From IMG/VR virus record IMGVR_UViG_2799112923_000001: a stretch of 64,000 nt of DNA. One strand, 5' to 3'. A program made the translations under genes and the position numbers. This document shows, in pieces, positions 8,690 to 62,905 of the stretch (its first letter is position 1; each line of letters begins with the position of its first letter). This DNA comes from a virus. Taxonomy: Duplodnaviria; Heunggongvirae; Uroviricota; Caudoviricetes. The notes under the pieces are model-generated. The model saw nothing but the letters and a program-made list of their open reading frames with translations, ran no database searches and was not told the origin of the DNA.

Positions 8690-9163
8690 ATGAAATGGAA
8701 TAAACGATTAGAAAAGAAGATTGTAAAACTGTGCGATAGTTTGGGAATTGAAACCAACATTGACTGGGATGTTGGTCACTGCGATTTCATCTACCACAAT
8801 GAACACCAATACAGACCATTGGGAGCTGTGCGTTGGTATGGCTATATGATGGATTGTAATCCGACCATTGGAAACAAAATCTATGTAGCCACTTGTTGGA
8901 CTAAAATCGTTTTTACCGACTATGTATCTAGTAAACCGACTAAAATTGACATTTGGGATGTGAACTATGATGATAAAAAAGAACATACTCATTTTCGTAG
9001 TGATATAAGCGAACACAAGACCCAAACAATTCCTGACGATTATACTGAACAACAGTTGTTAGCATTTTTGGAAGAAAATTTAACAAGAGTGTTAAAAGCA
9101 TCTCGTTTGGATAAAATGTATAAGTCATTGGATAAAATTCAAGAGGACTTTAATGACGAATGA
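8690..9163 (+). CDS. DF-tail family protein
   Basis: Ends KIQEDFNDE. Confidence 0.7.
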   Translation: MKWNKRLEKKIVKLCDSLGIETNIDWDVGHCDFIYHNEHQYRPLGAVRWYGYMMDCNPTIGNKIYVATCWTKIVFTDYVSSKPTKIDIWDVNYDDKKEHTHFRSDISEHKTQTIPDDYTEQQLLAFLEENLTRVLKASRLDKMYKSLDKIQEDFNDE

Positions 9164-9491
9164 TGAATATAATAAGTATGCTGAAACATTTAGTGAATTA
9201 GGATTTACAAGTGAACGGTACTACAGTTCGGATTTTATTCTAATTTATTTTGAATGTTCTCGGGTTGGTGAATTTGATACAAAAAAATTAATGTTTGAAA
9301 TATGTACAGAAGCATGTGTTCATTTTACATATTGTGTGGGAACTGAAGAAACTATTATAAACTTCTCATTTAACAAAAATGTAATGTGTGATTATGCTGC
9401 TGGAATAACTTATCTTAAAAAATTAAACTACGAAATTTCAAAAGGGAAAGAACTAATAGAAAAACTTAAAATGGTAAAGGATTTCGCATGA
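9153..9491 (+). CDS. DF-tail family protein
   Basis: Ends KMVKDFA. Confidence 0.7.
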   Translation: MTNDEYNKYAETFSELGFTSERYYSSDFILIYFECSRVGEFDTKKLMFEICTEACVHFTYCVGTEETIINFSFNKNVMCDYAAGITYLKKLNYEISKGKELIEKLKMVKDFA

Positions 9492-9916
9492 TATTTTTAA
9501 TTATAAGTGTAATTTGTTTTGGTCTTATATTATTTCTTGATAGTTTAGTACCAGACGAAAAAGAAAGAACTGACGATGTGTTCGCAAACAATAATGACCC
9601 TGCCGTTGATTGCCATAGAAAATTCTGTTTGTTATCTGATGATTTGTTCAAACAACTATGTGCGATAGATGGTAGTGCTACCCAGGATTCAATGGGTAAT
9701 CTTTATTGTTGGGATTTTTGCGACCATAAAATTCAAATTACTGCAATTCTTAAACATGGAACACCACCAAAAACATATATCTTGTATGATAACAAAATAA
9801 CTCAACAAAAGAAGAAATTTTACAAATACGAAAAATTCGTTGAATTTTTTGAACAACATAACTTAGAACTTAAACAACAAATCTTACAATATAACCTTAG
9901 CAAGGACTTCACATGA
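9488..9916 (+). CDS. DF-tail family protein with N-terminal TM helix
   Basis: Hydrophobic N-terminus; ends NLSKDFT. Confidence 0.7.
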   Translation: MIFLIISVICFGLILFLDSLVPDEKERTDDVFANNNDPAVDCHRKFCLLSDDLFKQLCAIDGSATQDSMGNLYCWDFCDHKIQITAILKHGTPPKTYILYDNKITQQKKKFYKYEKFVEFFEQHNLELKQQILQYNLSKDFT

Positions 9917-10413
9917 ATCTAATTTACTTTATCTTCTTCGTTATCTTTATCGCAATCGCTGCTATTGTGATTAAGACTGACAAATTCGTGGAACCTAAGA
10001 AAGAACCCAAGGTTCCAACACCTGTGGCTAAAAAGCCACTACCAAAGAAATCACCATCTCCAAAGCCACCTTCTCGTAGGCCTGCTCCACCAAGCCCAAA
10101 TGCGATGGTTATGGGTTTGCGTGAATGGGAACAGTGGGGTTTTGAGAATATGGTTGAACTCAAGGCTTGCGGTGCCAATGTTTCCAGTTATGGTAGAAAT
10201 ATGAAGAATGGCTATTCTATTTTGAATGGAACTGTAAAATTTGAATATGACCCAGATCCTACTGATGGTAAGCATTACTGCTACTACAATACAGAAAAAC
10301 ATATCTGTGTTGGGTTTGAAAAATTGAAGGATTTTATTACATTTTACAATGACCAGCTGAAAGACCTAAAAGAACAAATTTTCCTACATAGTTTACAAGA
10401 GGATTTTAACTAA
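9913..10413 (+). CDS. DF-tail family protein with N-terminal TM helix and Pro-rich linker
   Basis: TM segment, PKKSPSPKPP linker; ends SLQEDFN. Confidence 0.7.
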   Translation: MNLIYFIFFVIFIAIAAIVIKTDKFVEPKKEPKVPTPVAKKPLPKKSPSPKPPSRRPAPPSPNAMVMGLREWEQWGFENMVELKACGANVSSYGRNMKNGYSILNGTVKFEYDPDPTDGKHYCYYNTEKHICVGFEKLKDFITFYNDQLKDLKEQIFLHSLQEDFN

Positions 10414-10768
10414 TGAAAGTATCCGATTTAAAGAAACAGTTTGAACAAGAAGGGTTTGAATGTTTTTACCAAGCTCGGGTAAAGAAAAATTTTAACATTT
10501 TTCTTCCTTTACCAGGTGGTCGCATTAGTATCGGTGAATATCGTAGTGAGGTAAATCATTTTAAGATTTGTAATTGTTCACAGTTATACATTACAGAAAC
10601 AAACGAATTTCTTACGAATGAAAAGAATTTGAATTTTGATGTTTGTTTCTATAATGAAGTTATGTTTGATAAAATTGAACCTGCTTTGGAATTAGCCAAG
10701 AAAATCGCAGTTGAATATAAGAGATTACAGGAAAGAATTAAATTAATAAAAATTGCTATGGATAGTCT

Positions 10769-11134
10769 ATGACAGAACAAGAATTTACATCTCTAATAGA
10801 AACATACGGCTTTGAATTGGATATTCAGGAAAATTATATTTTCGCAAGAATTCCAAATAGATACAACAAGCCAATGCAGTATATTGAATTTTATAGAAAA
10901 GAAAGATGGGGTGTTCTCCCAGGCACTGTATTGGTATATCCTATTAGTCCTGTAATGAGTGTTGATGGTTATGTTTTGGATTATGAAATAGCTGGTTGGG
11001 GTGGAGATAAGAAGTTTTCAAAACCACATAAACTCAAAAGGTTTTTGGATGAACAAATGGAACTATTGAAAGAGTTGAGAACAAAGATTTTGGAAACTGA
11101 ACTCAGTTGGGATTTCTGTAATGATGAAGATTAA
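10769..11134 (+). CDS. DF-tail family protein
   Basis: Starts MTEQEFTSLIETYGF; ends ELSWDFCNDED. Confidence 0.65.
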   Translation: MTEQEFTSLIETYGFELDIQENYIFARIPNRYNKPMQYIEFYRKERWGVLPGTVLVYPISPVMSVDGYVLDYEIAGWGGDKKFSKPHKLKRFLDEQMELLKELRTKILETELSWDFCNDED

Positions 11135-11468
11135 GAATGAAATTTGGCATAAACTGCTTGACGAATTTGGTTTGAAAGTTCGTGTTTATGATGAAGGATA
11201 TAAAATCTATTCTGCGAGATATGAATATAACCCTGGTGATAGTGTAGAAATGCTTCGCATTTGTGAAAATGGGTGTTTTTCTAGTTTTTATGTATCATCC
11301 ATATTAACTGATTATTCCAGCATTAACATCGGTGTAAATGTTGTGGCAGGTTGTTTGGTAGATGTAAAGAGTTATGAACAAGCACGAAATCATATTGGAA
11401 AGATAATAAACCAAATACAGAAATGTAGAGAAAAATTGGAACTGAAAAAGATAAAGAAGGATTTTTAA
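11121..11468 (+). CDS. DF-tail family protein
   Basis: Ends KIKKDF. Confidence 0.7.
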   Translation: MMKIKNEIWHKLLDEFGLKVRVYDEGYKIYSARYEYNPGDSVEMLRICENGCFSSFYVSSILTDYSSINIGVNVVAGCLVDVKSYEQARNHIGKIINQIQKCREKLELKKIKKDF

Positions 11469-11840
11469 ATGAAATCAGCACACGCAGCACAGATTGTAAA
11501 TAGCACGAAATTATTTAAGAAAGATTCGGGCTCTTTTTTTGGGATTTATTTTGATGCTAAGGGTACTATTGAAGAATTACCCGGTTTTACTTATTCTTAT
11601 TATGTTGTTGTTAATGAAGATGAAGTAAGTGGTAAATGGTCTATTTGGTACCCTGATACAAAAGCAGACAAATATAGTGATGGTGAAACTGTATTCAGTT
11701 TTAAATTGGATAAATTAAAAGAATCTGTTTTAAGAAAACATTTGGCTACATTTGCGGCTCAAAAGAGTATAATAACAATTAAAGAAAAAGAACTGTTGAA
11801 TAGTATTGAATTAGAATTGGTGAACAAGGATTTTGAATGA
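11469..11840 (+). CDS. DF-tail family protein
   Basis: Ends LVNKDFE. Confidence 0.7.
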   Translation: MKSAHAAQIVNSTKLFKKDSGSFFGIYFDAKGTIEELPGFTYSYYVVVNEDEVSGKWSIWYPDTKADKYSDGETVFSFKLDKLKESVLRKHLATFAAQKSIITIKEKELLNSIELELVNKDFE

Positions 11841-12199
11841 CAGTAGAAGAAATTAGAAAATTGGTATTAAACTCCAAGTTGTTTAATTGTACAATTAACC
11901 CATATTTTCCAATGTGGGAATTAAAGTTGGAAGACGCAGAGTTTCCGATTAAGCATTCAGTTTATCTTTATGTAACCCACTCAGATACTAATTTGACAGG
12001 TGGTTATATGAGTGTGGATTTAGCAACAAATAAAAACATAACAGAAGTACAGTTGTTTAATTATCCCATTAGTGAATTAAACAAAGTTCGTTTATTGGAA
12101 TGTATAGATTTGCTTACACAAGCACAATACGAAATGTTAAAGAAAGAAAAAGATTATAATGTAAACCAAAATTTACAGAAAATCCAAGAAGATTTCTAG
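11837..12199 (+). CDS. DF-tail family protein
   Basis: Ends KIQEDF. Confidence 0.7.
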   Translation: MTVEEIRKLVLNSKLFNCTINPYFPMWELKLEDAEFPIKHSVYLYVTHSDTNLTGGYMSVDLATNKNITEVQLFNYPISELNKVRLLECIDLLTQAQYEMLKKEKDYNVNQNLQKIQEDF

Positions 12200-12888: not shown

Positions 12889-13188
12889 ATGCTTTCGCCA
12901 AAGATACAAAATCTTTTAACACATACCCTATTAAAAATGGGGTTTGAACCTGATAAAGATGCAACCTATAACAGTTTGATTTGTAAATCACCATACATTG
13001 AAATTTGTATTTATAATGATGGTGGCTATGTTTACGATGAAAACGGAAATTCATTTGATTATTACTATCCTGAAGATACACTTTATTTAACCCACGATGG
13101 AAAATATGACGAAGAATTTTTCATTAGAATGGTTAAAAAATCAAAAGAACTTTTACTCCAGCGTGAAATAAAGAAAGATTTTGAATGA
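12889..13188 (+). CDS. DF-tail family protein
   Basis: Ends EIKKDFE. Confidence 0.7.
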   Translation: MLSPKIQNLLTHTLLKMGFEPDKDATYNSLICKSPYIEICIYNDGGYVYDENGNSFDYYYPEDTLYLTHDGKYDEEFFIRMVKKSKELLLQREIKKDFE

Positions 13189-13410
13189 CTATACAAGAAA
13201 TAAAACAACAAATTAGACGCGGTAATGGAAATTATATAAGTGGGTTTGTATCGTGGCAATCTATTATAAAGACTAGACGAGAAACCATTGGCGACAGTCA
13301 TGTAATAGAAACCCAAAAACTAGAAGTTGCTCAGGAATGGCATAGATTAAATGAGTTGGGTAAAAAATCTATAAGAATGCAAAAAGAAGAACTGAAGATA
13401 CAAGAGGAAT

Positions 13411-13674
13411 TTGATGAGTAGATTAGAAAAATTATGTAAGTTAAATATGAAATTGAAACTGTTGAATCGTATCATTGAACAGGCTAACAAAGATTTACAT
13501 TATGTGTTTGACGCAGACATTTTTGAACTTACTAATTGGGAAAAAGAATTTTTAGACGAAATAAATGTTTCTTATAAAGAAGGTAATGCAGTTGTAATCA
13601 GTTGGGAAGAATCACAAGTTCTAAAATTAAAAGAAGAATTTGAAAAATTGAAGATGCAGAAGGATTTTATCTAA
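13411..13674 (+). CDS. DF-tail family protein
   Basis: Ends KMQKDFI. Confidence 0.65.
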   Translation: MMSRLEKLCKLNMKLKLLNRIIEQANKDLHYVFDADIFELTNWEKEFLDEINVSYKEGNAVVISWEESQVLKLKEEFEKLKMQKDFI

Positions 13675-14252
13675 TGAAGTTATTTCAAATAATCAAATAC
13701 AGTTTCAAATATAGAAAGCGAATCAAAACGCACATTAAGCGAGTTCAGCATTTCTATTTTGAACTTCTTCATTATGGAAAGATTTCTCCACAGTTTATTG
13801 ACATTGACAGAATTATGAACCACGATAAAGACAAACTAAAATTGAAAAATTTGGTTCGTCAAGCATTGAGATATATTCCAGGTCCACTCACAGAAAAAGA
13901 CAAATTGAAAATTCACTATGTAGTAATGGAGCATATCAGAACCAATAAACACCACTGTGAATACTGGGGTGAAAGTAGTTATGTTTCTATGGGTGTGAAT
14001 TGTACACAAATGAAAGAAACCTATTTGTACGAAATGTGTGCCGATTGGGCTGCTACATCCGAAGAAATGGGAACTGACTTAATGGCTTGGTATAATAAAG
14101 TAGTGAACACGAAATTTATTTTTACAGATAAACAAATCCAAATCATTAAACCAATTTGTGAATTTCTATCTGAGAGATTGGATAAAAATTACATTAGAAA
14201 AGACGATATGAAATCTGTTAAACTTTCCACTTTGGGAGTAGTAAATGATTAG
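13674..14252 (+). CDS. HD-superfamily phosphohydrolase-like protein (DUF5662-like)
   Basis: H..RV, HDKDK, HIRTNKHHCEYW, EMCADW metal-binding pattern. Confidence 0.6.
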   Translation: MKLFQIIKYSFKYRKRIKTHIKRVQHFYFELLHYGKISPQFIDIDRIMNHDKDKLKLKNLVRQALRYIPGPLTEKDKLKIHYVVMEHIRTNKHHCEYWGESSYVSMGVNCTQMKETYLYEMCADWAATSEEMGTDLMAWYNKVVNTKFIFTDKQIQIIKPICEFLSERLDKNYIRKDDMKSVKLSTLGVVND

Positions 14253-14685
14253 AATGATAGACCAAAAATTCATTGACAAAATGAACGAACTGTGTGTTAA
14301 ATATAATTTTATAAAAGATTATGATAACAATAAACGAACAGATTATCATTTGTGGATGTATGGTGGAAAAACTACATACGAATTACCTGGTGTTCTTCAG
14401 GGATATTCTTATAGAATTTCTCCAATGGTAAGCATATCATTTCAATACTGGGAGAACAGATACTATATCTGTTATAGTGAACTTGTACCAACCAAATCAA
14501 AAACTGGGAATATCTTATATCCAAATAAAGACCGAAAGAATGTTTTGAAAGTGGAAAAGTTTGACTGGGTTAAGTTTGAAAATTGGCTAATTAACCAAAA
14601 TAATATAATTCCGCAATCTATAAAAGAAGCAAAAAATAGGATTGTTAAAAATAAACTAAACAAAGCAGAAAAGGATTTTAAATAA
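14245..14685 (+). CDS. DF-tail family protein
   Basis: Ends KAEKDFK. Confidence 0.7.
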   Translation: MIRMIDQKFIDKMNELCVKYNFIKDYDNNKRTDYHLWMYGGKTTYELPGVLQGYSYRISPMVSISFQYWENRYYICYSELVPTKSKTGNILYPNKDRKNVLKVEKFDWVKFENWLINQNNIIPQSIKEAKNRIVKNKLNKAEKDFK

Positions 14686-15008
14686 TGACTATTGACGAAT
14701 TAAAAGAAATTTTATTACCAAAAGGTTTTGAATGTGTATTACATGGATGGGTAGGTGACCCTGAACCAACCTGTTATCTTTTCAAAATGCCAAATTCACC
14801 AATTTTGGAAAACTTCATTATTTACGAGTTTGTTGGTAGAAACCGAATGATTGCTTATGATTCATACTGGGGTCAGAGCAAAATGTTTATTACAAATATA
14901 AATGAACCACTAAACTACGATTTAAATGCGGTAGCAGAATCGTATATAAAAAGTTACAAAGAACATGAAGTAGAAAAGAATTTGAAAGAATTAGAAGAAG
15001 ATTTCTAA
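14685..15008 (+). CDS. DF-tail family protein
   Basis: Starts MTIDELKEILLPKGF; ends ELEEDF. Confidence 0.7.
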   Translation: MTIDELKEILLPKGFECVLHGWVGDPEPTCYLFKMPNSPILENFIIYEFVGRNRMIAYDSYWGQSKMFITNINEPLNYDLNAVAESYIKSYKEHEVEKNLKELEEDF

Positions 15009-16973: not shown

Positions 16974-17408
16974 ATGAACTGTTGGTATGATGACCCAAAA
17001 TACACTGAAGACAAAGTAAAAGAAATGCTTCAGCCGTTTGCTGATCGTATTGAAACTGAATGTGGTGTAAAAACTTCATTTAATAGTGTTGCGAGCTGGA
17101 TGAAACCCTGTTCAAGTAGTATTGGTTTTGAATTTATGGGTTATCCAGTTGGATTTGTTGCTTTATATTTGAATTATCCGACTGAAGCAGTTTTACTAAG
17201 TCTTTATTCAAAGGTCACATTTACAGATAAATCATCATTCACAAAGACATCAATGCAGCACAAGATTAAAATTCAAGTGACTTGCAGGCGTGATTTACAT
17301 GAATCGGATATTGAAAAATATATTAAATGGTTGAATGTTATTTGTAAACAAATTAAGACTGCCGAAGCCAAAAAGAAACGCTTGGAAATGGATACTGATT
17401 TTGAATGA
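16974..17408 (+). CDS. DF-tail family protein
   Basis: Ends EMDTDFE. Confidence 0.7.
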   Translation: MNCWYDDPKYTEDKVKEMLQPFADRIETECGVKTSFNSVASWMKPCSSSIGFEFMGYPVGFVALYLNYPTEAVLLSLYSKVTFTDKSSFTKTSMQHKIKIQVTCRRDLHESDIEKYIKWLNVICKQIKTAEAKKKRLEMDTDFE

Positions 17409-17725
17409 ACATTGAACGAGTTAAAAATATGTGGGATTCTCTAACGAGAATAGATGAAATCATGGAAGAAAATGGTTTCACTAAGGAGAGGATTTACCAA
17501 AACAGTGATACTTTCTTTTCAAATGATTCATTTAAAATACGTGCACAACTATTAACTGAAGATTTAAACTTTTATCATTTGTATGGAACAAAGATAATTT
17601 TTTCATACAAGTTCAATGATTTTTTAAGTGAAGATTTGGCATTGAATGAAAAAAAATTTATAGAAATGGTTAAATCAGTTAAAGAAAAATTCTTGTTAAA
17701 AAGTGTTAGCGAGGATTTTGAATAA
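17405..17725 (+). CDS. DF-tail family protein
   Basis: Ends SVSEDFE. Confidence 0.7.
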   Translation: MNIERVKNMWDSLTRIDEIMEENGFTKERIYQNSDTFFSNDSFKIRAQLLTEDLNFYHLYGTKIIFSYKFNDFLSEDLALNEKKFIEMVKSVKEKFLLKSVSEDFE

Positions 17726-19076: not shown

Positions 19077-19706
19077 ATGGAAACAAATGTACAACAATTA
19101 GTAAACAAATTTAGGGGTGAACTTGAGTTCCCCCAATTTGTTGTTAAGTCATTTCCAGTCAAAGAAGGAACCATTTATAAGATGGTTTTTGATTTGGCTC
19201 ATTTGCCCCAGCCCAAATATGAAAAAGCAACATTATTTGTAAAACCTGAAGAATATCTTATTGGTATTGAGTTTGTTGTTCCAAGGCCATATATGGATTT
19301 AATGGATTTTAACCAAATTGAAGTTAGAATCTGTTATAGAGTGTATAAACTGAAAAATCTGTTGAATGATTGGACTCTAAAACGAATGAAAAAACTTTTA
19401 GAGAATAACTCATTTGAAGATTTCAAGAAAGAATACATTGAAAGAAATGAAATGGAAAACAAAGAACTAGATGTTAAGTTTGGTGATTTGGTTAAGGTTA
19501 TGGGAAAGATTTTGAATGAACAATCCAAAAATTTTGAACATACGATTGAATTAGTGAATGACCCAACTGTAAATTCTTTGTTAGACGATATTAAAAAAAT
19601 CAAAGAAGAAATTGATTTGAAGCATAACCAAATTTACGGAATTGAAAGTAAAATCCACTCAATTATCTCATTAAACATTGGAGCATTGGAAGATTTTGAA
19701 GGTTGA
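19077..19706 (+). CDS. DF-tail family protein, long coiled-coil type
   Basis: C-terminal heptad helix; ends ALEDFEG. Confidence 0.65.
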   Translation: METNVQQLVNKFRGELEFPQFVVKSFPVKEGTIYKMVFDLAHLPQPKYEKATLFVKPEEYLIGIEFVVPRPYMDLMDFNQIEVRICYRVYKLKNLLNDWTLKRMKKLLENNSFEDFKKEYIERNEMENKELDVKFGDLVKVMGKILNEQSKNFEHTIELVNDPTVNSLLDDIKKIKEEIDLKHNQIYGIESKIHSIISLNIGALEDFEG

Positions 19707-20055
19707 AGATAGATTAACTGGAAAAGATATAGCCAGTATTAATGATGCCATTAAAAGGATTTTTGGGTTTAAAGATTTGGATAAAGTTTTGGTATTTGAT
19801 TATAGCAGGGCTATACTAATATACAAATTATCCGAAAATCTTAAACTGAAAGTCGGTCGTTTTGTGAATTATTCCGATACAACTGGCTTAAAAGATTATA
19901 CTGGTATTGTTTACTCAATATGGGCCTTTGGCAGGCCTTATCAGTCCTTGACGGCTCTGAGCCAGTTGGCTATGATTAGATACCAACTACCACAAATGGA
20001 AAAAAGAGCCAGAGAGAGCCAGTGCTTGGCAAAAATCAAACAAGATTTTGAGTAA
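19678..20055 (+). CDS. DF-tail family protein
   Basis: Ends KIKQDFE; start uncertain. Confidence 0.65.
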   Translation: MEHWKILKVEDRLTGKDIASINDAIKRIFGFKDLDKVLVFDYSRAILIYKLSENLKLKVGRFVNYSDTTGLKDYTGIVYSIWAFGRPYQSLTALSQLAMIRYQLPQMEKRARESQCLAKIKQDFE

Positions 20056-20982: not shown

Positions 20983-21402
20983 AAAGGAGAAAACTATGTT
21001 TGGATTTATTTGTGGTGTAATCGTTTGTGTTGGTGCGTATTTTATGTACAAAATGGCAACTGTTGGTAGTGAAGAACAACCAATTTCCAGGGAAGAATCA
21101 CATTCAAAGTATGATGAATGGATGAAACATCGTGAACAGTTGGTTAAGAAACACGGACCCATTACAGACAGAGTAAAGACAGACCCAGTATACGCAGCTG
21201 AACAGTTCCATTATTTGATTGATGGAATGACTACAGGTGGTGTTCAGGACCGAGTTTGTTTTCTGTTGAATGTAGTGGAAAAGATGGAATGTATGAACCC
21301 AGATTTGATTGACTATATGAAGAGTGCAGTTTCAAGTACAGAAGTCAATGATTACGAATGTATCAAACAGAATTTGTATGATATTTGGCATGGAAAGAAT
21401 TA

Positions 21403-22005
21403 ATGAATAAAGTAAATTATGAAAAAATGTTGGATGTGATATTTGATGGGGTCACAGAAAAATCTTTCAAACAAAGATATTATGGGCGCAGTTTTAATAA
21501 CGAATATGTTCGTAGGGGCAACATTATAAATGGTTTCACTTGTGTGAATGTTCCAAACAAAATGTATATGGATATTTCCATATACCGATGTACTGTAGTA
21601 AATGATGACCCAAATGATACTACACCAATGACTGTGAACATCAATTTTTACAAACAAACTATCAACCAGCAACATGTTCTTAACCAGCTTTATCATACAG
21701 ATTTCTCAGTAAGTGATTTTATTAAAGAGGCATATACTACAACCAAACGAACATACAAATACACAGTCAATGACGAAAAAGATGCTCTAAAAGTTCGCAA
21801 GGCTATTGAAAATCATATTGAATGGATGAATAATCAAATTGAAACCATTTGTAATATCATTAACAATCTAGACCTCAAAAAAATGGCTGCTAAAATCCAA
21901 GAACTAGAAAATACGATTTCCGAAGCCGAAAAGGTTAGAGATGACTATGTAAACAAATGTGTTCAAACATGTAAGAATGTTCTTCAGCTCGCAAAGGATA
22001 TGTAA
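21403..22005 (+). CDS. DF-tail-like protein (variant), long coiled-coil type
   Basis: Ends QLAKDM after long helix. Confidence 0.55.
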   Translation: MNKVNYEKMLDVIFDGVTEKSFKQRYYGRSFNNEYVRRGNIINGFTCVNVPNKMYMDISIYRCTVVNDDPNDTTPMTVNINFYKQTINQQHVLNQLYHTDFSVSDFIKEAYTTTKRTYKYTVNDEKDALKVRKAIENHIEWMNNQIETICNIINNLDLKKMAAKIQELENTISEAEKVRDDYVNKCVQTCKNVLQLAKDM

Positions 22006-23951: not shown

Positions 23952-24292
23952 TGAAACATATCCATCAAGATTTGATTGATTGGTTGAGAAGTCAACACTT
24001 TCAAGTCAATATAGAAACCAAAAAACCAAATAGTGATTTTTGGGCATCCAAGTATGGTGAAACTTTGCTTTCTTATATTGATGGTGTGTTTTCTTATAGT
24101 GATTATCAACCATCCATTGATGCTATAACTGATTTTCAATATGATTATAATGAACTTGACGATTATAATATAGAGGAAGTTCATAATGTAATAAAAGGAG
24201 CTGTATCACGATTTGATGAATGGCTATTTTTTAAAACAGATTTAGGTAGAAAAGTAAGAAAAAGTTTAGACGAAATAAAGAAGGATTTTTAA
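23951..24292 (+). CDS. DF-tail family protein
   Basis: Ends EIKKDF. Confidence 0.7.
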   Translation: MKHIHQDLIDWLRSQHFQVNIETKKPNSDFWASKYGETLLSYIDGVFSYSDYQPSIDAITDFQYDYNELDDYNIEEVHNVIKGAVSRFDEWLFFKTDLGRKVRKSLDEIKKDF

Positions 24293-42168: not shown

Positions 42169-42209
42169 AAATCCAATGGGTGAACAACTCATTGGATTTT
42201 TTCTATATT
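42169..42209 (+). terminator. Terminator-like hairpin after groEL overlapping a TATATT -10 box
   Basis: AAATCCAATGGGT/ACTCATTGGATTT stem plus T-run; TATATT 42204. Confidence 0.6.
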
Positions 42210-51498: not shown

Positions 51499-51672
51499 TT
51501 TGTATAGAAGAACTTGGATATGAAATTAAGAGATTGGAAGTGTTATTCAATAACACAGATAATCCTGAAGAAAAACTAGCAACACAAATGGTTTTAAACA
51601 ATTTGAATAATTTGGTTGCTCAGTTATCACAACTCATTACAACTCCTGATTTTAAAGAAATGGCAAAAGAAT

Positions 51673-52035
51673 ATGAACCAAAAGAAAATTGAAGAATCTA
51701 TTAAATTCTTTTGTGAGTATATTCAGCCCCCATTTACAATAGACCATAATAATTCTTGTTTTAATGTAAGTTTAAATGAATGGGGTATTTTTAGAGTGGA
51801 TTATTGGAAAAATACCATTTATTATCCTGATGTAATTCGTTATATAAATGGCGAACCAAGAACATTTTGCTTTGAATGGAGTAAGATAAAACCAACTTCA
51901 ACATTTGACGTATTAAATAAAAAAACATTTACCACTGATGACGAAATTATAGTATTGTTAGAAGATTTATACGAAAAAGCCAAAAAAGCAAAAGAAATAG
52001 AATTGGAACATCAAGTTAGGAGGGATTTCAAATAA
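51673..52035 (+). CDS. DF-tail family protein
   Basis: Ends QVRRDFK. Confidence 0.7.
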   Translation: MNQKKIEESIKFFCEYIQPPFTIDHNNSCFNVSLNEWGIFRVDYWKNTIYYPDVIRYINGEPRTFCFEWSKIKPTSTFDVLNKKTFTTDDEIIVLLEDLYEKAKKAKEIELEHQVRRDFK

Positions 52036-52490: not shown

Positions 52491-53352
52491 AGAATTAAAA
52501 GAAAAGATTAATAATCTTACTGACGAAACCGAATTAAAAGAAATCAGTCTTTGGGCTGATGCTCGTAGGCAGCAACTAAAAGACGAAAAGGCTATGGCTA
52601 ACAAAACAGAATTGGAAGCCAAATATAAGGGTAAGTATCTAATTAAATATGGCCGACAAATGATGGCTATGGCAGTCAAATTTAACCGAGATAATCTTGA
52701 CGATATATCCATTATTCATGTGCTGGATATTGATTTTAAGGGTAGAGGGTTTTTTAGATGCCATGCCAAAGTAATCCATATTCAGTATGACCCTGAAACT
52801 TCTTTGGTTGGGCATTTGACCTCTAGTGGATTTAATGAAGTAAAAATCCAATGTTTTGAAGATTCACAGTATGATATAAATGAAACTGATATTGCCCAAA
52901 TCGTTGACCAGAACACTGCTAATGGTATTATTAACGAAGCCAAGAAATATCAAGTTGAAATTATGAATAATTGGGATTTATGATTATTACACAAGTAGAA
53001 CATCCTGATATGTTTGACAAGTTAAAAGAAATTGTTGAACAACAGAAAACATTTGAAGAAGAAGATTTACAATACAATTACAAAGGTGAAGATAAAGAAG
53101 ATATCTGGCACTGTATGGAATTCTTTTATCAAAACATTTGGGTAAAGAATTTTAGACCATTTGTTTATAGTGATAAAGATGACTGGGAAAACTATCATTT
53201 CCAATTAGAATATAATGGAAAGTTTTCCGAAGTAGAAATTGTTTATGGTATTGGAGCATTTTGTGTAATTCACCCAATGAATCATAAACCAACGAATGCT
53301 TCTAAAGTATTGGATTTGAACAAGATAACAGTTAGTGGTGAAGAAGTTCATT

Positions 53353-53652
53353 ATGATGAATAAATTATTGAATTTTATTTACAAACATACACACAGAATT
53401 GCCAAGAAAAGAGTTACCACACCACAGTTAGATGTTGGTGAGCGCTGGTGCCCTCAATGGTGGTTTATTTGGTGGCACTATTACTGGCGAGAAATTGGTT
53501 ATCAGTTTATGACACCAATTTCTTACGAAACATTGGAAGAAGCAGAATTTATGACTAACAAAGAGATTTCGTTTGAAGAAAAACATAAGTATTGGTTAAG
53601 ACATATTAAAGAAAAAATGAAAATGACAGATATTGAACAAGATTTTAAGTAA
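53353..53652 (+). CDS. DF-tail family protein
   Basis: Ends DIEQDFK. Confidence 0.7.
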   Translation: MMNKLLNFIYKHTHRIAKKRVTTPQLDVGERWCPQWWFIWWHYYWREIGYQFMTPISYETLEEAEFMTNKEISFEEKHKYWLRHIKEKMKMTDIEQDFK

Positions 53653-59328: not shown

Positions 59329-59718
59329 ATGAATTTAGAAGAACAACTAGAACAGTGGAAAAGAGAATATGGTGACTTTCTTGCAAAACTCGGTGAATCA
59401 AAGCGTGAACCCGTCATGACTGAAGCATGGCGAGATTGGTGTATTAAAAATAACGCAACATATTATGATGCCGCTTATGCTAAAATACCAGTTGAAGGTT
59501 ATGAATATGACATAAACTATCGTAATGGTATTTTTTCTGTAAGAAAACTCAGTGCCCGAATTGATGAAAATTATAATGTTAGTATAGATTTATATGCTTC
59601 AAAAACTTACGAATATACAACATATCAAGACCTTGATAATGTATTGAACGAAGAAAAGATTTTCATTAAACGAATGAATGAACTAAAAAATTTGCTACAC
59701 TTACAAGGAGACTTCTAA
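59329..59718 (+). CDS. DF-tail family protein
   Basis: Ends HLQGDF. Confidence 0.7.
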   Translation: MNLEEQLEQWKREYGDFLAKLGESKREPVMTEAWRDWCIKNNATYYDAAYAKIPVEGYEYDINYRNGIFSVRKLSARIDENYNVSIDLYASKTYEYTTYQDLDNVLNEEKIFIKRMNELKNLLHLQGDF

Positions 59719-59901
59719 TGACAACTAATGATGCTATAAATGAATTACTAAAACAACTTGCCATTAATAGTGGTATTGGCGGTGGTTTTTATGGTACAAT
59801 ATTTGGTGACGATAAAGATACTGAAAAAATGAAAACTGTATGTACTGAAGAAGAATGGACTAATTTCTGTGAAGAAATGGGTCTGGAAGAAGGAGATGCT
59901 A

Positions 59902-60252
59902 ATGAATAAGAACAAACTAAATTATTATAATTTCCAACAGGCTCTAGGGAAGAATGGTATTAACTTCTTTGATTTAGACGATGAAATGTGGAATCAAAAG
60001 AACGGTCATATTATGCACTTTTCTTTGGGTAATTTAAAAGTCCAAGTAGAAAATATAGAAAATCGTTATTTTAGAATGTACGATGTTCAGTTCACATTTG
60101 ATAGTGAAGGTCATTTAAATGTTTCCTGGAATGGAGAACAGCAATACGATACACTAGACGATTTGAAGAATGGCATTAAAAATCTAAGGGCTTTGTACAA
60201 GAAAATGCTTGCTTTTAGTAAGAACATTCAAGCTGATAGAGATTTCGTATGA
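59902..60252 (+). CDS. DF-tail family protein
   Basis: Ends QADRDFV. Confidence 0.7.
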   Translation: MNKNKLNYYNFQQALGKNGINFFDLDDEMWNQKNGHIMHFSLGNLKVQVENIENRYFRMYDVQFTFDSEGHLNVSWNGEQQYDTLDDLKNGIKNLRALYKKMLAFSKNIQADRDFV

Positions 60253-60668
60253 GATGGAATGACGTAGAACTTGAAAAAGTAAAAGAAGAACTTGAAAAGA
60301 AATTTGAAGATTTAATCAAAACCAAGTATGGTATTGATGTAACAAAACGCAACACTGACAATGACATTTGTACAGACGAAGAATTTATAGCCTGGTGTAA
60401 GAAAAATGGTTGTAGAGGTTGTTCAGCATATTCAGGTACAATAGAAATTGGTGGTGTTTCAGTTTTAATTCGTAATGAAAAGACTATTTTTGAATGTGAA
60501 GATTTTGAATATACCTTGACAAGAGAAGGTTTCTCTCCAAAAAAGACATTATCAAAGTATTTCCATTCATTTGAATCATTAGAAAAACATTTGAACGATT
60601 TGAAGTTATTTGCTAAACGAGTAGCAGAAATGAAAAGTGTGTATAAAACACAAGAGGATTTTGTATGA
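60249..60668 (+). CDS. DF-tail family protein
   Basis: Ends KTQEDFV. Confidence 0.7.
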   Translation: MRWNDVELEKVKEELEKKFEDLIKTKYGIDVTKRNTDNDICTDEEFIAWCKKNGCRGCSAYSGTIEIGGVSVLIRNEKTIFECEDFEYTLTREGFSPKKTLSKYFHSFESLEKHLNDLKLFAKRVAEMKSVYKTQEDFV

Positions 60669-61165: not shown

Positions 61166-61532
61166 AGAATTCATTTGCCATTGGCCTGGTTGTTCTGTAA
61201 AGACTACTGACCGAAACCAAATTGAATTTCACCATATCGTACCTAGAGAATTATGGCCGAGATTGAATCAACATGTTACTTTGAGTTTTTGCCCAACACA
61301 CCATAGAATGATATGGCACCCGGAATGTAAGAATGGACCGCATAGCCGAAATAGTCCAAACAAACTACAAATCTTAAATATATACCCTGTAGCACCTGAA
61401 GGCTATGCAGTAGAGTATAAAGATTTTAATGATAAAACATTTTTAGAATGTTTTGAAGGAACATACGCAAATCATATAGACGAGGACGAAGATGAACGAT
61501 ACAACAACAGATTTGGCTACACAAACAGATAA
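61140..61532 (+). CDS. HNH-like nuclease domain protein
   Basis: C...GC, EFHHIVP, N....FCPTHH..I.H. Confidence 0.65.
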   Translation: MELTIIQNKEFICHWPGCSVKTTDRNQIEFHHIVPRELWPRLNQHVTLSFCPTHHRMIWHPECKNGPHSRNSPNKLQILNIYPVAPEGYAVEYKDFNDKTFLECFEGTYANHIDEDEDERYNNRFGYTNR

Positions 61533-61835
61533 TTATTTTGTAGATAACAGCATCAGTACTAACAGTACTAGCCGGTATTGTAGTAACAACTACAACATCA
61601 CCATTAGTTCATAGAACCTGTGGTTATTTGCTAGGTGGTTTAGTTCAAGATAACCAAGAAGAAAAAGAACCATTGTGTACTCAGGAAGAATGGGATGAAT
61701 TTGTTCAAGAAATGGGTTTGGAAAAAGAAGAACCTATGCGTTATTACGATGTAAACAATACAACTGAGTATTCATTGACAGCTACCAATAGCATAACTGT
61801 ATCAGGGAATAACATAACTGTATCATGGTAATAAT

Positions 61836-62243
61836 ATGACTACAAGTGGAAACGCAAGTTTAAATTCAAATTTAACAAGTGGAAGCAGTTTAACAAATTA
61901 TAATGGATATGTTAGTGTTAGTGGAACATTAGGAACTATAACTCCTTCAACGGCAAGTATTTGGACTACTAATTTCTATGCCCACGATACATATAAAATA
62001 CAGATTGGTGATTACAAAATGAGTATTACCAATTATCAAAACAAAACACTAATAGCAGATAGTGTTTCATTTAATTTCAAGACTACTGCTACTGGTGTGA
62101 AATTAGTTGTGTCTGGAAACTACGAAACTATGGCTTTCAATTCTTTACAAGAACTGAAAGAATATATTGTTAGAGTTAAAGCCACATACTTGAAAGCAAA
62201 AGAAATGGAAAAGCAGCTTAATATAATGGGAGATTTTACATAA
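61836..62243 (+). CDS. DF-tail family protein with S/T-rich N-terminus
   Basis: Ends NIMGDFT. Confidence 0.65.
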   Translation: MTTSGNASLNSNLTSGSSLTNYNGYVSVSGTLGTITPSTASIWTTNFYAHDTYKIQIGDYKMSITNYQNKTLIADSVSFNFKTTATGVKLVVSGNYETMAFNSLQELKEYIVRVKATYLKAKEMEKQLNIMGDFT

Positions 62244-62477
62244 ATGGTAGCATTTTGTATTGGATTAATTATAGTCAGTTTATTGCTACTATATCCATTA
62301 CTGAAAGATGGTACTTTTGATTCGCTCAGTTGTTTGGGTGTAGCTGGTGTTATTGCGACTGTATTTTTTGCGATACTAACAATAATTACGAAGTTTAGCA
62401 ATTAACAAAATAATTAAATGGGTAGTTTACTAACTGCCCATTTTTGATTATATTTTGGCAAAACTAAAGGAGATTTT

Positions 62478-62624
62478 ATGGATGATTATAGACCAATTAT
62501 CACCCAGGAAGAATGGGAACAGTTTGTTCAAGAATTTGGATTGGAATTAGCAGTCACCAAAACTGATGACGTTGACGATTTTTTCCAAAGATTAGAAAAT
62601 GACTTTGACGGGAGCCCGTGGTAA
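62478..62624 (+). CDS. 48-aa acidic protein (not in ORF track)
   Basis: AAGGAG RBS; MDDYRPIITQEEWEQFVQEFGLE... Confidence 0.65.
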   Translation: MDDYRPIITQEEWEQFVQEFGLELAVTKTDDVDDFFQRLENDFDGSPW

Positions 62625-62905
62625 TGATTAGACGAACAGAAAACGCATTTTATAAACTGGATAAAGATTTAAGCATTTCAGTTAAATACTTTGATAATAA
62701 AATTCTAATCTTTCCATTAGAATTGAATTTCAAACCTGCCAACAAAAGAAATACTCATTTGGATGCAAGTATTTACCATTCGTATGAACCAGTTGAGTTT
62801 GACCAGTTGGATGATGCTCGTAAATACCTGAAGAGTTTAATCAAAACATATAAGCAGTATAAAGAAATTATCAAATTCCAAAAAGCATCCGAAGATTTTA
62901 AATAA
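62624..62905 (+). CDS. DF-tail family protein
   Basis: Ends KASEDFK. Confidence 0.7.
   Translation: MIRRTENAFYKLDKDLSISVKYFDNKILIFPLELNFKPANKRNTHLDASIYHSYEPVEFDQLDDARKYLKSLIKTYKQYKEIIKFQKASEDFK

What the first reader, a model, noticed from the sequence alone, without database searches (positions are those of the whole stretch)
8690..62905. About 38 divergent proteins share a C-terminal helix ending hydrophobic-x-x-D-F: candidate common targeting or docking tag
Seen: by my count 38 ORFs have DF within the last 2-7 residues (IQEDF, IKKDF, LEEDF, MDTDFE, LQGDF, ASEDFK etc.). Five more are variants (MDSL, EEFDE, KDM, QEFRD, and EDF plus an extension at 32559). The motif follows a K/E-rich amphipathic helix, while the rest of the proteins barely align. 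None of the recognisable enzymes carry it. It could partly be an RBS by-product, since AAGGAT/GAGGAT often precedes an overlapping ATG and GAGGATTTT occurs out of frame near 7940. However, it persists at operon ends (12199, 15008, 20055, 28329, 33271, 37198, 53652) and where the next gene has its own RBS (17725, 30156, 62905), and it uses GAT/GAC and TTT/TTC. That indicates protein-level selection. Inference: a modular system of variable heads docking on one partner, such as a capsid-packaging or injection route, a protease/chaperone or a hub protein. It may be an anti-defence or host-takeover arsenal.
Basis: partly seen in the sequence, partly recalled or inferred. Interest (0 to 1): 0.85.

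Follow-up and report, generated by a model that had tools for sequence, protein, structure and literature searches.

The report
Giant phage family sharing DF helix
About a third of the genes of this uncultured giant rumen phage are small, very fast-evolving early proteins that share almost nothing except one C-terminal helix ending in Asp-Phe, which is selected at the protein level and most likely plugs them all into one still unknown partner.

Summary
39 of 136 + strand ORFs have D-F in their last 7 residues, against 2.9 expected (maximum 10 in 2000 shuffles).

The shared element is longer than D-F. It is a helix of about 30 residues with one conserved face: K-14, K/R-11, E-10, L-6, I/L-3, D0, F+1.

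Selection acts on the protein. Synonymous divergence is the same in tail and head, while dN/dS is 0.30 against 0.44. D-F is kept at 8 operon ends that have no Shine-Dalgarno. A ribosome-site overlay exists only in the codon before D.

The genes sit behind consensus sigma-70-type promoters, so they are early genes and capsid packaging is unlikely.

No Pfam or PHROG family matches. A profile search of 1.84 billion proteins finds only this phage clade. In a 210-kb relative, 133 of 412 ORFs (27% of the DNA) carry the tail.

The tail is not the phage's own sliding-clamp motif: the relative's polymerase and a methylase end S-G-L-[DN]-D-F-F. A more distant relative, 411 kb long, has no DF tails but has a smaller L-P-tailed set.

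The partner and the function remain unknown.

This scan has already reported the same family in neighbouring windows of this genome and in another rumen phage of about 400 kb.

The parts
8690..9163 (+). DF-tail gene, 157 aa
   Evidence: Ends D-F plus 3 residues. Tail HMM 18.3 bits, a self-score because the gene is in the training set. Orthologs P0001-P0008 keep D-F while the residues after it vary.
9153..9491 (+). DF-tail gene, 112 aa
   Evidence: D-F plus 1 residue; 20.4 bits.
9488..9916 (+). DF-tail gene, 142 aa, with an N-terminal hydrophobic segment
   Evidence: D-F plus 1 residue; 15.7 bits. The gene is absent from relative L002.
9913..10413 (+). DF-tail gene, 166 aa, with an N-terminal membrane helix and a Pro/Lys-rich linker
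   Evidence: D-F plus 1 residue; 20.6 bits.
10413..10772 (+). Variant member, 119 aa, with F replaced (ends D-S-L)
   Evidence: Not in the HMM training set, yet scores 10.5 bits. K-14, E-10, L-6 and I-3 are all in place.
10769..11134 (+). DF-tail gene, 121 aa; the member that was modelled
   Evidence: D-F plus 5 residues. AlphaFold2 pLDDT 91: helix 3-11, seven strands, helix 86-120.
11121..11468 (+). DF-tail gene, 115 aa
   Evidence: Ends exactly on D-F; 24.1 bits.
11469..11840 (+). DF-tail gene, 123 aa
   Evidence: D-F plus 1 residue; 12.6 bits.
11837..12199 (+). DF-tail gene, 120 aa, at an operon end
   Evidence: Ends on D-F. The codon before D is GAA, so there is no AGGA. A promoter cassette follows.
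12889..13188 (+). DF-tail gene, 99 aa
   Evidence: D-F plus 1 residue; 20.4 bits.
13185..13421 (+). Variant member, 78 aa, with E-F in place of D-F
   Evidence: K-14 and I-3 are kept. The HMM score is weak at 4.8 bits.
13411..13674 (+). DF-tail gene, 87 aa (TTG start uncertain)
   Evidence: D-F plus 1 residue; 18.8 bits. Its L002 ortholog has E-F.
14245..14685 (+). DF-tail gene, 146 aa
   Evidence: D-F plus 1 residue; 19.3 bits. In the natural chimera P0039 its head is joined to the tail of the next gene.
14685..15008 (+). DF-tail gene, 107 aa, at an operon end
   Evidence: Ends on D-F. The codon before D is GAA. 24.5 bits.
16974..17408 (+). DF-tail gene, 144 aa
   Evidence: D-F plus 1 residue; 21.7 bits.
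17405..17725 (+). DF-tail gene, 106 aa
   Evidence: D-F plus 1 residue; 21.9 bits. The next gene has its own GGAG site.
19077..19706 (+). DF-tail gene, 209 aa (long form)
   Evidence: D-F plus 2 residues; 10.8 bits.
19678..20055 (+). DF-tail gene, 125 aa (TTG start uncertain), at an operon end
   Evidence: D-F plus 1 residue. The codon before D is CAA. 22.8 bits.
21385..22005 (+). Variant member, 206 aa, ending D-M
   Evidence: K-14 and L-3 are kept. The HMM score is weak. It is the first of five tandem genes of 204-234 aa.
22005..22679 (+). DF-tail gene, 224 aa (long form)
   Evidence: D-F plus 2 residues; 13.5 bits.
22663..23337 (+). DF-tail gene, 224 aa (long form)
   Evidence: Ends on D-F; 17.4 bits.
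23337..23951 (+). DF-tail gene, 204 aa (long form)
   Evidence: Ends on D-F; 15.5 bits. It also has an internal D-F-like helix end further upstream.
23951..24292 (+). DF-tail gene, 113 aa
   Evidence: Ends on D-F; 16.4 bits.
24294..24998 (+). DF-tail gene, 234 aa, at an operon end
   Evidence: D-F plus 2 residues. The codon before D is AAA. 13.0 bits.
26499..26831 (+). DF-tail gene, 110 aa
   Evidence: D-F plus 1 residue; 15.4 bits.
27715..28329 (+). DF-tail gene, 204 aa, at an operon end
   Evidence: D-F plus 1 residue. The codon before D is TCA. The tail is nearly invariant in 9 orthologs of 81-97% identity. The AlphaFold2 model is unusable at pLDDT 46.
29737..30156 (+). DF-tail gene, 139 aa
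   Evidence: D-F plus 1 residue; 21.8 bits. The next gene has its own GGAG site.
30712..31092 (+). DF-tail gene, 126 aa (GTG start uncertain)
   Evidence: Ends on D-F; 22.3 bits.
31056..31469 (+). DF-tail gene, 137 aa (the true start is probably downstream; orthologs are 123-125 aa)
   Evidence: Ends on D-F; 17.3 bits. Orthologs are P0017 and P0021-P0025.
32559..32900 (+). Variant member, 113 aa, with the tail followed by a 14-residue extension
   Evidence: Not in the training set, yet scores 17.0 bits at residues 74-102 of the open frame.
32858..33271 (+). DF-tail gene, 137 aa, at an operon end
   Evidence: D-F plus 1 residue. The codon before D is CAA. 22.8 bits. Its head is related to that of 19678 (E = 1e-6).
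36818..37198 (+). DF-tail gene, 126 aa, at an operon end
   Evidence: D-F plus 1 residue. The codon before D is TCC. 22.0 bits.
37271..37708 (+). Variant member, 145 aa, with E-F plus 2 residues
   Evidence: K-14 and I-3 are kept. There is no HMM hit.
42180..42596 (+). DF-tail gene, 138 aa (GTG start uncertain), directly after groEL
   Evidence: D-F plus 1 residue; 20.8 bits.
42583..42972 (+). DF-tail gene, 129 aa
   Evidence: D-F plus 1 residue; 16.8 bits.
42953..43351 (+). DF-tail gene, 132 aa
   Evidence: D-F plus 2 residues; 19.4 bits.
51616..52035 (+). DF-tail gene, 139 aa (TTG start uncertain)
   Evidence: D-F plus 1 residue; 15.4 bits.
53335..53652 (+). DF-tail gene, 105 aa, at an operon end
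   Evidence: D-F plus 1 residue. The codon before D is CAA. 20.5 bits.
59329..59718 (+). DF-tail gene, 129 aa
   Evidence: Ends on D-F; 20.3 bits.
59869..60252 (+). DF-tail gene, 127 aa (GTG start uncertain)
   Evidence: D-F plus 1 residue; 17.0 bits.
60249..60668 (+). DF-tail gene, 139 aa
   Evidence: D-F plus 1 residue; 21.6 bits.
61836..62243 (+). DF-tail gene, 135 aa, with a Ser/Thr/Asn-rich N-terminus and no N-terminal helix motif
   Evidence: D-F plus 1 residue; 21.4 bits.
62618..62905 (+). DF-tail gene, 95 aa (GTG start uncertain)
   Evidence: D-F plus 1 residue; 26.2 bits. The next gene has its own GGAG site.

Best explanation
These genes are a clade-specific, hugely expanded set of small early phage proteins. 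Each has a variable alpha/beta head. The one confident model shows a short N-terminal helix, a seven-strand sheet and a 35-residue C-terminal helix. The last four turns of that helix stick out beyond the globular part (inferred from which residues align to known folds).

The protruding turns carry one conserved face: Lys at -14, Lys/Arg at -11, Glu at -10, Leu at -6, Ile/Leu at -3, then Asp-Phe within 0-3 residues of the end.

Shown here:
- the tail is real;
- it is helical;
- it is under purifying selection as protein;
- it is kept while the heads diverge almost beyond recognition;
- it can be swapped between heads in nature;
- the genes are early, read by host RNA polymerase.

Inferred, not shown: the tail is a common handle that docks every head onto one shared cytoplasmic partner (a hub), so that different heads bring different targets or activities to it. 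The hub is unidentified. It is probably not reached through the phage's canonical sliding-clamp motif.
For: Enrichment and extended motif: 39 observed against 2.9 expected. K-14 occurs in 30 of 40 terminal D-F sites against 3 of 66 internal ones.

Protein-level selection:
- Against three relatives, dS is 0.25 in the tail and 0.26 in the head, while dN/dS is 0.30 against 0.44.
- D and F codons change synonymously between orthologs.
- D-F is kept at 8 operon ends with A-ending or other codons before D.
- 43 translationally coupled genes without the tail encode their Shine-Dalgarno through many other endings.

Helix: AlphaFold2 gives helix 86-120 at pLDDT 78-97. Opposite charges sit preferentially at i/i+3 and i/i+4.

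Protrusion: fold matches align only model residues 1 to about 105.

Rapid head evolution with a constant tail: against the relative G001, whose GroEL is 88% identical, only 12 of 38 proteins still have a detectable counterpart, at 23-34% identity. D-F is kept in 9 of 9 pairs. Tail identity is 44% against 30% for the head (p = 0.004).

Scale: 133 of 412 ORFs and 27% of the DNA in G001, with K-14 in 113 of 133.

Swap: P0039 is the head of 14245 joined to the tail of 14685.

Clade-specific ending: the distant relative G002 has no DF tails, but about 24 small proteins ending in L-P-(G) after a similar helix. This is what a co-evolving partner would produce.

Early timing: 15 TTGACA-N16-18-TATATT sites on the + strand and none on the - strand.

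Cytoplasmic side: the member at 9913 has an N-terminal membrane helix followed by a Lys/Pro-rich linker. By the positive-inside rule (my knowledge), its tail lies in the cytoplasm.
Against: - No partner was identified and no co-folding could be run.
- The conserved helix could be kept for folding or self-association and not for a hub.
- Only one head has a confident model. The second model failed (pLDDT 46), so 'many folds, one tail' is not shown in this window.
- About half the members share an N-terminal helix followed by G-[FYL]. The set may therefore be one old paralog family whose best-conserved part happens to be C-terminal.
- The protrusion of the last four turns is inferred from alignment ranges.
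Confidence: 0.47

Rival explanations
1. The tail is a self-association helix. Family members form homo-oligomers or mixed oligomers through their C-terminal helices (coiled coil or helical bundle), so variable heads sit on a common stalk and there is no separate hub.
For: The last 16 residues are amphipathic, with a hydrophobic stripe at -10, -6, -3 and +1 flanked by charges. The weak top Foldseek matches are OB-fold proteins that join through a C-terminal helix, such as RPA14/32 and Stn1-Ten1. Long forms carry a second D-F-like helix end upstream of the terminal one.
Against: Covariation among 66 tails shows only within-helix i/i+3 and i/i+4 pairs. There is no complementary pattern of the kind an antiparallel pair would give. 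Simple oligomerisation does not need an invariant Asp-Phe and Lys-14 across more than 130 paralogs.
Confidence: 0.2
2. Ordinary paralog family. One ancestral small alpha/beta protein was amplified, and the C-terminal helix is simply the structural core that tolerates least change. There is no shared partner.
For: About half of the members show the same N-terminal helix followed by G-[FYL], and the same order of elements. The model is a compact two-helix-on-sheet sandwich. Tandem arrays with gene gain and loss between close relatives are typical of amplification.
Against: The best-conserved residues are two charged ones (K-14 and D0) plus a terminal Phe, lying beyond the part that aligns to any globular fold. 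Core positions further up the helix are less conserved, at 0.4-1.0 bits against 2.3-4.3 bits. Head-only profiles cannot recognise left-out members: 2-10 bits, against 8-15 bits for unrelated proteins. The best hhalign probability between heads is 23%.
Confidence: 0.15
3. The tail is a non-canonical ligand of the phage sliding clamp (gp45 homolog), like the C-termini of T4 gp43, gp33 and gp55.
For: The clade has a gp45-type clamp: phrog_223 at E = 2e-12 in G001. T4 gp43 and gp55 end in S-L-D-F-L-[FY] (PMC2988020), which shares D-F near the C-terminus. The spacing from the hydrophobic residue at -3 to F+1 equals the spacing from L to the second F in the clade's own motif.
Against: The clade's real clamp motif can be read directly. 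In G001, PolB and an N6_N4 DNA methylase end S-G-L-[DN]-D-F-F-x after a Ser/Gly linker. In G002, gp55 has G-L-D-F-Y. None of the 38 tails has Leu before the D or an aromatic residue after the F. The tail is a rigid helix, not a linker-borne peptide. The tail HMM gives no hit on the polymerase C-termini. In G002 the family ending is L-P while its clamp motif stays aromatic.
Confidence: 0.08
4. The tail is a degradation or timing tag. A protease or unfoldase recognises it and clears all early proteins together at the switch to later phases.
For: All carriers are early genes. A single shared tag on more than 130 proteins would give co-ordinated turnover. The window also encodes a chaperonin, Hsp20 and an M18 aminopeptidase.
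Against: Known C-terminal degrons such as ssrA need the free C-terminus (my knowledge). Here 0-5 variable residues, and once 14, follow the F. A 16-30-residue conserved helix is far more than a degron needs. No ATP-dependent protease was seen in the window.
Confidence: 0.07
5. The motif is a nucleotide-level by-product of Shine-Dalgarno sites and translational coupling, or a capsid-packaging or injection signal.
For: In coupled genes the codon before D ends in G in 13 of 20 cases, giving AGGA 6-8 nt before the next start. The figure is 0 of 6 at operon ends (p = 0.015). GAG makes up only 9% of Glu codons in the window.
Against: This overlay touches one codon only. K-14 lies 42 nt upstream. dS is not reduced in the tail. 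D-F survives where there is no downstream gene. Tails follow gene orientation on both strands. Packaging is unlikely for genes driven by early sigma-70-type promoters.
Confidence: 0.03

Closest known systems
T4-family sliding-clamp-binding motif at the C-termini of gp43, gp33 and gp55 (PMC2988020, PMC7892883)
   Same: Both are short acidic-hydrophobic elements containing D-F at the extreme C-terminus of several otherwise unrelated proteins of one phage, and both plug those proteins into one hub. The T4 motifs are interchangeable between proteins, and here a natural tail swap exists.
   Different: The T4 motif is a peptide of about 7 residues on a flexible linker, with the core L-D-F-[LF]-[FY]. 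This clade has its own version, S-G-L-[DN]-D-F-F, on PolB and a DNA methylase. The DF tail is the end of a rigid 30-residue helix with conserved positions back to -14. It has no Leu before D and no second aromatic residue, and it is carried by more than 130 proteins, not about four.
Viral multigene families with a variable head and a constant docking end, such as poxvirus ankyrin/PRANC (F-box-like) proteins
   Same: Both are large lineage-specific expansions of fast-evolving proteins in a big virus genome, with variable target-binding parts joined to one short conserved C-terminal element that engages a single host machine.
   Different: There is no sequence or fold relation. The host here is bacterial. 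The hub is unknown and docking has not been demonstrated.
Lineage-specific expansion of about 35 zinc-ribbon proteins in Bacillus phage G (PMC7824862)
   Same: Both are expansions of one small-protein family in a jumbo phage. The review called the phage G case 'unprecedented'.
   Different: Here the copy number is several-fold higher (133 in 210 kb of a relative). The shared part is a C-terminal helix and not a recognisable domain. No DNA-binding signature is present.
Frataxin/CyaY-like and toxin-immunity-like two-helix-on-sheet sandwiches (4hs5_A, 7zhm_D, and type III chaperones 1s28_A and 3kxy_A)
   Same: The order of elements in the one confident model is the same: an N-terminal helix, an antiparallel sheet, and a C-terminal helix packed on the same side.
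   Different: [quoted passage not shown] There is no sequence relation. The C-terminal helix here is about 16 residues longer.

Membership tests
T4-type sliding-clamp-binding motif (SCBM) | Located at the extreme C-terminus of the carrier | tested here: met
   F is followed by 0 residues (9 genes), 1 (23), 2 (4), 3 (1) or 5 (1).
T4-type sliding-clamp-binding motif (SCBM) | Core L-D-F-[LFY]-[FY]. In this clade it is S-G-L-[DN]-D-F-F on PolB and a methylase. | tested here: not met
   None of 38 tails has Leu directly before D, and none has an aromatic residue after F. The T4 and clade motifs were read. The tail HMM does not hit the polymerase C-termini.
T4-type sliding-clamp-binding motif (SCBM) | Attached through a flexible, poorly conserved linker | tested here: not met
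   The tail is a continuous predicted helix, residues 86-120, with i/i+3 and i/i+4 charge pairing and conserved positions back to -14.
T4-type sliding-clamp-binding motif (SCBM) | Binds the gp45 clamp | not testable with these tools
   A clamp homolog exists in relatives. No co-folding or binding assay was available.
Any described protein family (Pfam-A, PHROGs) | Significant profile match | tested here: not met
   None of 43 members matches Pfam at E <= 0.001. In the 10 tested against PHROGs, the best hit is E = 7e-4 to a family of unknown function. A profile search of 1.84 billion representatives returned 17 proteins, all from this clade.
Single paralog family (common origin of the heads) | Heads recognisably homologous without the tail | tested here: inconclusive
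   Only a few head pairs are related (E = 1e-6 for 19678 and 32858). Leave-one-out head profiles score left-out members no better than unrelated proteins. The best hhalign probability is 23%. An N-terminal helix followed by G-[FYL] recurs, but a loose pattern for it is also common in non-members: 49% against 35%.
Frataxin/CyaY-like fold | Alpha-beta sandwich with N- and C-terminal helices on one face of an antiparallel sheet, matched at a convincing score | tested here: inconclusive
   The topology fits, but Z is 5.0 at rmsd 2.8 over 76 residues, within the noise range stated by the tool.
C-terminal degron of the ssrA type | Recognition of the last residues together with the free carboxylate | tested here: not met
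   The residues after F vary in number and kind, even between orthologs. One member has a 14-residue extension.
Membrane-targeting amphipathic helix (MinD/FtsA type) | Cationic amphipathic C-terminal helix without conserved acidic residues | tested here: not met
   The mean net charge of the last 16 residues is +0.6, ranging from -4 to +4. There is an invariant Asp and a frequent Glu at -10.

The most novel reading that the evidence does not exclude
The phage carries an adaptor library. Each of more than 130 early proteins uses its fast-evolving head to capture a different host or defence protein, and its constant helix to deliver that protein to a single hub, such as a protease, a chaperonin, RNA polymerase or the ribosome. 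This would be a bacterial-virus counterpart of the F-box/PRANC substrate-receptor families of large eukaryotic viruses. The hub would co-evolve with the tail, which ends in D-F in this clade and in L-P in a sister clade.
Probability: 0.25. Interest if true: 0.9.

Novelty: new variant of a known kind. Interest (0 to 1): 0.68.

Why it matters
If the tail is a docking handle, one short peptide gives experimental access to the partner around which a quarter of a 400-kb phage genome is organised, and to more than a hundred candidate host-takeover or counter-defence proteins at once.

Even without a mechanism, three points stand out:
- It is among the largest single-family expansions reported for a phage. 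A 2021 survey called a 35-copy family in phage G 'unprecedented'.
- It shows how giant phages can fill their genomes by amplifying one module.
- Sister clades keep different strict endings on an analogous set of small proteins, which gives a natural handle for finding the partner by co-variation.

Tried and rejected
- Head homology by sequence gave nothing usable. I tried pairwise phmmer, leave-one-out head-only HMMs and hhalign of 15 ortholog groups.
- Fold of a second, larger member: the AlphaFold2 model of 27715, built with nine orthologs, reached only pLDDT 46, so no fold search was run on it.
- ESM Atlas holds the 61836 protein but no model of it, and the best feature score was 0.77.
- Fold searches of the good model found no convincing relative. 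Foldseek against the PDB gave E >= 0.07, VIA wide gave Z <= 5.9, and BFVD gave E >= 0.012 with several Bacillus phage G proteins on top.
- Antiparallel self-pairing tested by covariation of 66 tails: only within-helix pairs appeared.
- I walked 86 kb upstream on a 409-kb ENA contig of a close relative to reach the clamp, polymerase and gp55. I found uvsW, uvsY, gp46, gp47 and RtcB but not those genes. ENA contigs cannot be searched whole. The IMG/VR relatives G001 and G002 answered the question instead.
- Pfam clamp models PF09116, PF02916 and PF00712 found nothing in the relatives. PHROG 223 did.
- The 732-aa and 1272-aa proteins at the window start, which I considered as possible hubs, have no Pfam, PDB or phage-collection match.

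Full report
**Setting.** The window has 33% G+C, and essentially all its genes lie on the + strand. It encodes:
- a chaperonin;
- an M18 aminopeptidase, CoaE and DUF5662;
- NAD-salvage genes and a split NAD ligase, according to earlier notes.

No whole genome is held for the window. Notes from this scan place it in a jumbo phage of about 400 kb from the cattle rumen.

The relatives I could read were:
- two IMG/VR fragments and two ENA contigs of 407 and 409 kb, at about 93% nucleotide identity;
- an IMG/VR contig of 210 kb, G001, with GroEL 88% identical and about 74% nucleotide identity over the third of the window that still aligns;
- a 107-kb fragment, G003;
- a 98%-complete genome of 411 kb, G002, with GroEL 65% identical.

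- A greedy non-overlapping set of 136 + strand ORFs contains 39 with D-F in the last seven residues. Composition predicts 2.8, and 2000 shuffles give a mean of 2.9 and a maximum of 10. No other dipeptide comes close.
- When the tails are anchored on D-F, the shared element turns out to be much longer. Lys sits at -14 in 29 of 38 tails, Lys/Arg at -11, Glu at -10, Leu at -6 and Ile/Leu/Val/Met/Ala at -3. About 30 residues before the end there is a helix-start pattern, [ST]-[FY]-x-[DE]-L.
- Internal D-F sites in the same proteins lack these features: K-14 occurs in 3 of 66, p = 1e-14.
- An HMM of the tail hits only C-termini of + strand frames. It also hits two sequences that were not used to build it: the extended form at 32559 and the D-S-L variant at 10413.
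I therefore count 43 members in the window.

**Protein or nucleotide?** Protein, with a small nucleotide overlay.
- I compared 35 ortholog pairs from three close relatives. Synonymous divergence is the same in tail and head (0.25 against 0.26). Non-synonymous divergence is lower in the tail, with dN/dS of 0.30 against 0.44. GAT/GAC and TTT/TTC interchange between orthologs.
- Eight members end operons. In all eight, D-F is kept while the codon before D is GAA, CAA, AAA, TCA or TCC, so there is no AGGA.
- In translationally coupled members, the codon before D ends in G in 13 of 20 cases, against 0 of 6 at operon ends (p = 0.015). GAG makes up only 9% of Glu codons overall. One codon is therefore tuned to serve as the next gene's ribosome site.
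- That cannot explain Phe, K-14 (which lies 42 nt upstream) or the hydrophobic stripe.
- The 43 coupled genes without the tail encode their ribosome sites through many different endings.
- In the upstream region of a relative, tails also occur on minus-strand operons and follow gene orientation.

**Expression class.** Operon boundaries carry a cassette with three parts:
- a TGTAAA-N6-TTTACA palindrome, present in 12 copies against 0.01 expected;
- a hairpin plus T-run whose loop contains TTGACA;
- TATATT about 17 nt further on.

There are 15 such promoter-like sites on the + strand and none on the - strand. These are near-consensus sigma-70-type promoters. The DF genes are therefore most likely early genes read by unmodified host polymerase. 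That argues against a virion-packaging signal.

**What are the proteins?**
- None of the 43 matches Pfam, and PHROGs gives nothing meaningful.
- A profile of 37 full-length members, searched against 1.84 billion representative proteins, returned 17 hits. All are orthologs of window genes or one further member from the same clade. A word-seeded search of 5.8 billion proteins gave the same picture.
- The member at 10769, modelled with orthologs and paralogs as its alignment, gives a confident structure (pLDDT 91). It has a short N-terminal helix, seven strands and one 35-residue C-terminal helix.
- Its best structural neighbours are weak: Z <= 5.9 for a Mediator Med17 domain, a toxin-immunity protein, frataxin and type III chaperones.
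- Those neighbours align only to residues 1 to about 105. I infer that the last 16 residues or so, from K-14 onwards, project beyond the globular part.
- Charge pairs at i/i+3 and i/i+4 across 66 tails support a helix independently of the model.
- The conserved positions fall on one side of a helical wheel.

**One family or many heads?** This remains unresolved.
- The heads are not demonstrably homologous by pairwise search, by leave-one-out profiles or by profile-profile comparison.
- Many members share an N-terminal helix ending in G-[FYL]. That pattern is loose, however: 49% of members have it, against 35% of non-members.
- Some members add an N-terminal membrane helix (9488, 9913), long helical inserts (21385 to 24998) or a Ser/Thr/Asn-rich start (61836).
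- My second model, of 27715, failed.
- My cautious reading is a largely single but extremely diverged family with accretions, whose tail behaves as a module.
- Modularity has direct support. The database protein P0039 is the head of 14245 fused in frame to the tail of the neighbouring 14685. Close relatives also differ by whole-gene insertions and deletions inside the arrays.

**Scale and tempo.**
- In G001, 133 of 412 ORFs end in D-F, against 9 expected. K-14 is present in 113 of them. Their median length is 123 aa, and they cover 27% of the DNA.
- GroEL is 88% identical between G001 and the window. Yet only 12 of the 38 window members still have a detectable counterpart there, at 23-34% identity.
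- In all nine full-length pairs D-F is kept. The last 16 residues are better conserved than the heads, at 44% against 30% (p = 0.004).

**Testing the clamp idea.** Earlier reports of this scan named the T4 clamp-binding motif as the closest known thing, so I tested that idea.
- T4 gp43 and gp55 end in S-L-D-F-L-[FY] (PMC2988020). The motif sits on a flexible linker (PMC7892883).
- The clade has a gp45-type clamp.
- Its own motif can be read directly. In G001, the family-B polymerase and an N6_N4 DNA methylase end S-G-L-[DN]-D-F-F-x. In G002, gp55 carries G-L-D-F-Y.
- The DF tails have neither the Leu before Asp nor the second aromatic residue. They are helical, not linker-borne, and the tail HMM ignores the polymerase ends.
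- The DF tail is therefore not this phage's clamp motif. A non-canonical interaction cannot be excluded.

**A sister clade with another ending.** G002 shows no D-F enrichment and no tail-HMM hit. About 24 of its small proteins end in a similar long helix that finishes h-x-x-[AI]-I-[ED]-x-L-P-(G). The hydrophobic residue has the same -3 spacing, and a similar Y-x-D-h helix start lies about 29 residues before the end. Each clade thus keeps its own strict ending across its paralogs, while the clamp motif stays aromatic in both. This is what co-evolution with a clade-specific partner would produce. Expansion from different founder genes would look the same.

**Best reading.** The tail is a shared interaction helix on a very large, rapidly evolving set of early cytoplasmic proteins. 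It most likely docks them on one partner (about 0.45-0.5). The rivals are:
- tail-tail oligomers (0.2);
- plain structural conservation in a paralog family (0.15);
- a non-canonical clamp ligand (0.08);
- a turnover tag (0.07);
- a nucleotide by-product or a packaging signal (0.03).

Function is unknown. The early timing, the arms-race tempo and the interleaving with NAD-salvage genes fit a role in host takeover or counter-defence, but nothing here tests that.

**Prior knowledge.** I found no paper describing this family. A comparative survey of jumbo phages described a zinc-ribbon expansion of about 35 copies in phage G as unprecedented (PMC7824862). The same DF-tail family has already been reported by this scan in neighbouring windows of this genome and in another rumen phage genome. 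What this report adds:
- the gene count and DNA share in a 210-kb relative;
- the selection statistics;
- the natural chimera;
- the reading of the clade's true clamp motif;
- my own check of the L-P-tailed sister clade.

Noticed in passing
window 7693-7760, 12203-12270, 15010-15075, 18605-18660, 20056-20125, 24994-25060, 28330-28395, 33272-33340, 44302-44370, 53654-53720, 63487-63555: A recurrent terminator-promoter cassette. It has a TGTAAA-N6-TTTACA palindrome (12 copies against 0.01 expected), then a hairpin whose loop holds TTGACA, a T-run, and TATATT 17 nt on. There are 15 promoter-like sites on the + strand and none on the - strand. The palindrome may be an operator or an UP-like element for the early promoters.
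   Followed up: partly
relative G001 (IMG/VR, 210 kb): 35731-38490 (-), 35049-35747 (-), 9839-10567 (-): The family-B DNA polymerase and an adjacent N6_N4 DNA methylase both end S-G-L-[DN]-D-F-F-x, a T4-like clamp-binding motif. A gp45-type clamp (PHROG 223) is present, although the Pfam clamp models miss it. A clamp-tethered DNA methylase would be of interest in its own right.
   Followed up: partly
relative G002 (IMG/VR, 411 kb, 98% complete), e.g. 18859-24155 (-), 40188-41562 (+), 401806-405143: About 24 small proteins end in a long helix finishing I-[ED]-x-L-P-(G). This is an analogous set with a different strict ending. The genome has no DF tails.
   Followed up: partly
P0039 and P0013 (database proteins from relatives): P0039 is an in-frame chimera of the head of gene 14245 and the tail of gene 14685. 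P0013 is the ortholog of 10769 read through into a further 37 residues.
   Followed up: partly
L002 16293-16658 and 19858-20202, against window 8688/8689 and about 12300; window 9488-9916 is absent from L002: Close relatives (about 93% nucleotide identity) differ by whole-gene insertions and deletions inside the arrays, which points to rapid gene turnover.
   Followed up: partly
L012 (Bacillus phage G, JN638751, 354661-371001): About 27 tandem paralogs of roughly 200 aa (gp447-gp474) share a conserved C-terminal helix of the form Y-W-K-E-x-x-x-Y-L-x-K-x-L. Several small phage G proteins (gp200, gp475, gp484-486) are the top, weak BFVD fold matches of the 10769 model. Large tail-sharing arrays may be a general trait of giant phages, and phage G can be cultured.
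   Followed up: partly
window 39974-43351: hsp20 and groEL are followed directly by three DF-tail genes, with no promoter cassette between them. A link between the phage chaperonin and this fast-evolving family is conceivable but untested.
   Followed up: no
window 45749-45806: TATAAATA, a T4-type late-promoter box, lies just upstream of the non-family gene at 45807. Late promoters therefore exist in the window but do not head the DF operons.
   Followed up: no
window 62478-62624: A 48-aa ORF with a family-like N-terminal helix followed by G-L, and D-F seven residues from its end. It is probably a remnant, and is related to the small ORFs at 59718 and 61628.
   Followed up: no
window 47-6063: Two large conserved proteins of 732 and 1272 aa have no Pfam, PDB or cultured-phage match. 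They lie just upstream of the first DF array.
   Followed up: partly
window 25090-35002: NAD-salvage genes are interleaved with DF operons. A paper on NAD synthesis in gastrointestinal jumbo phages exists (PMC11662467) and should be consulted before calling this pathway new.
   Followed up: no
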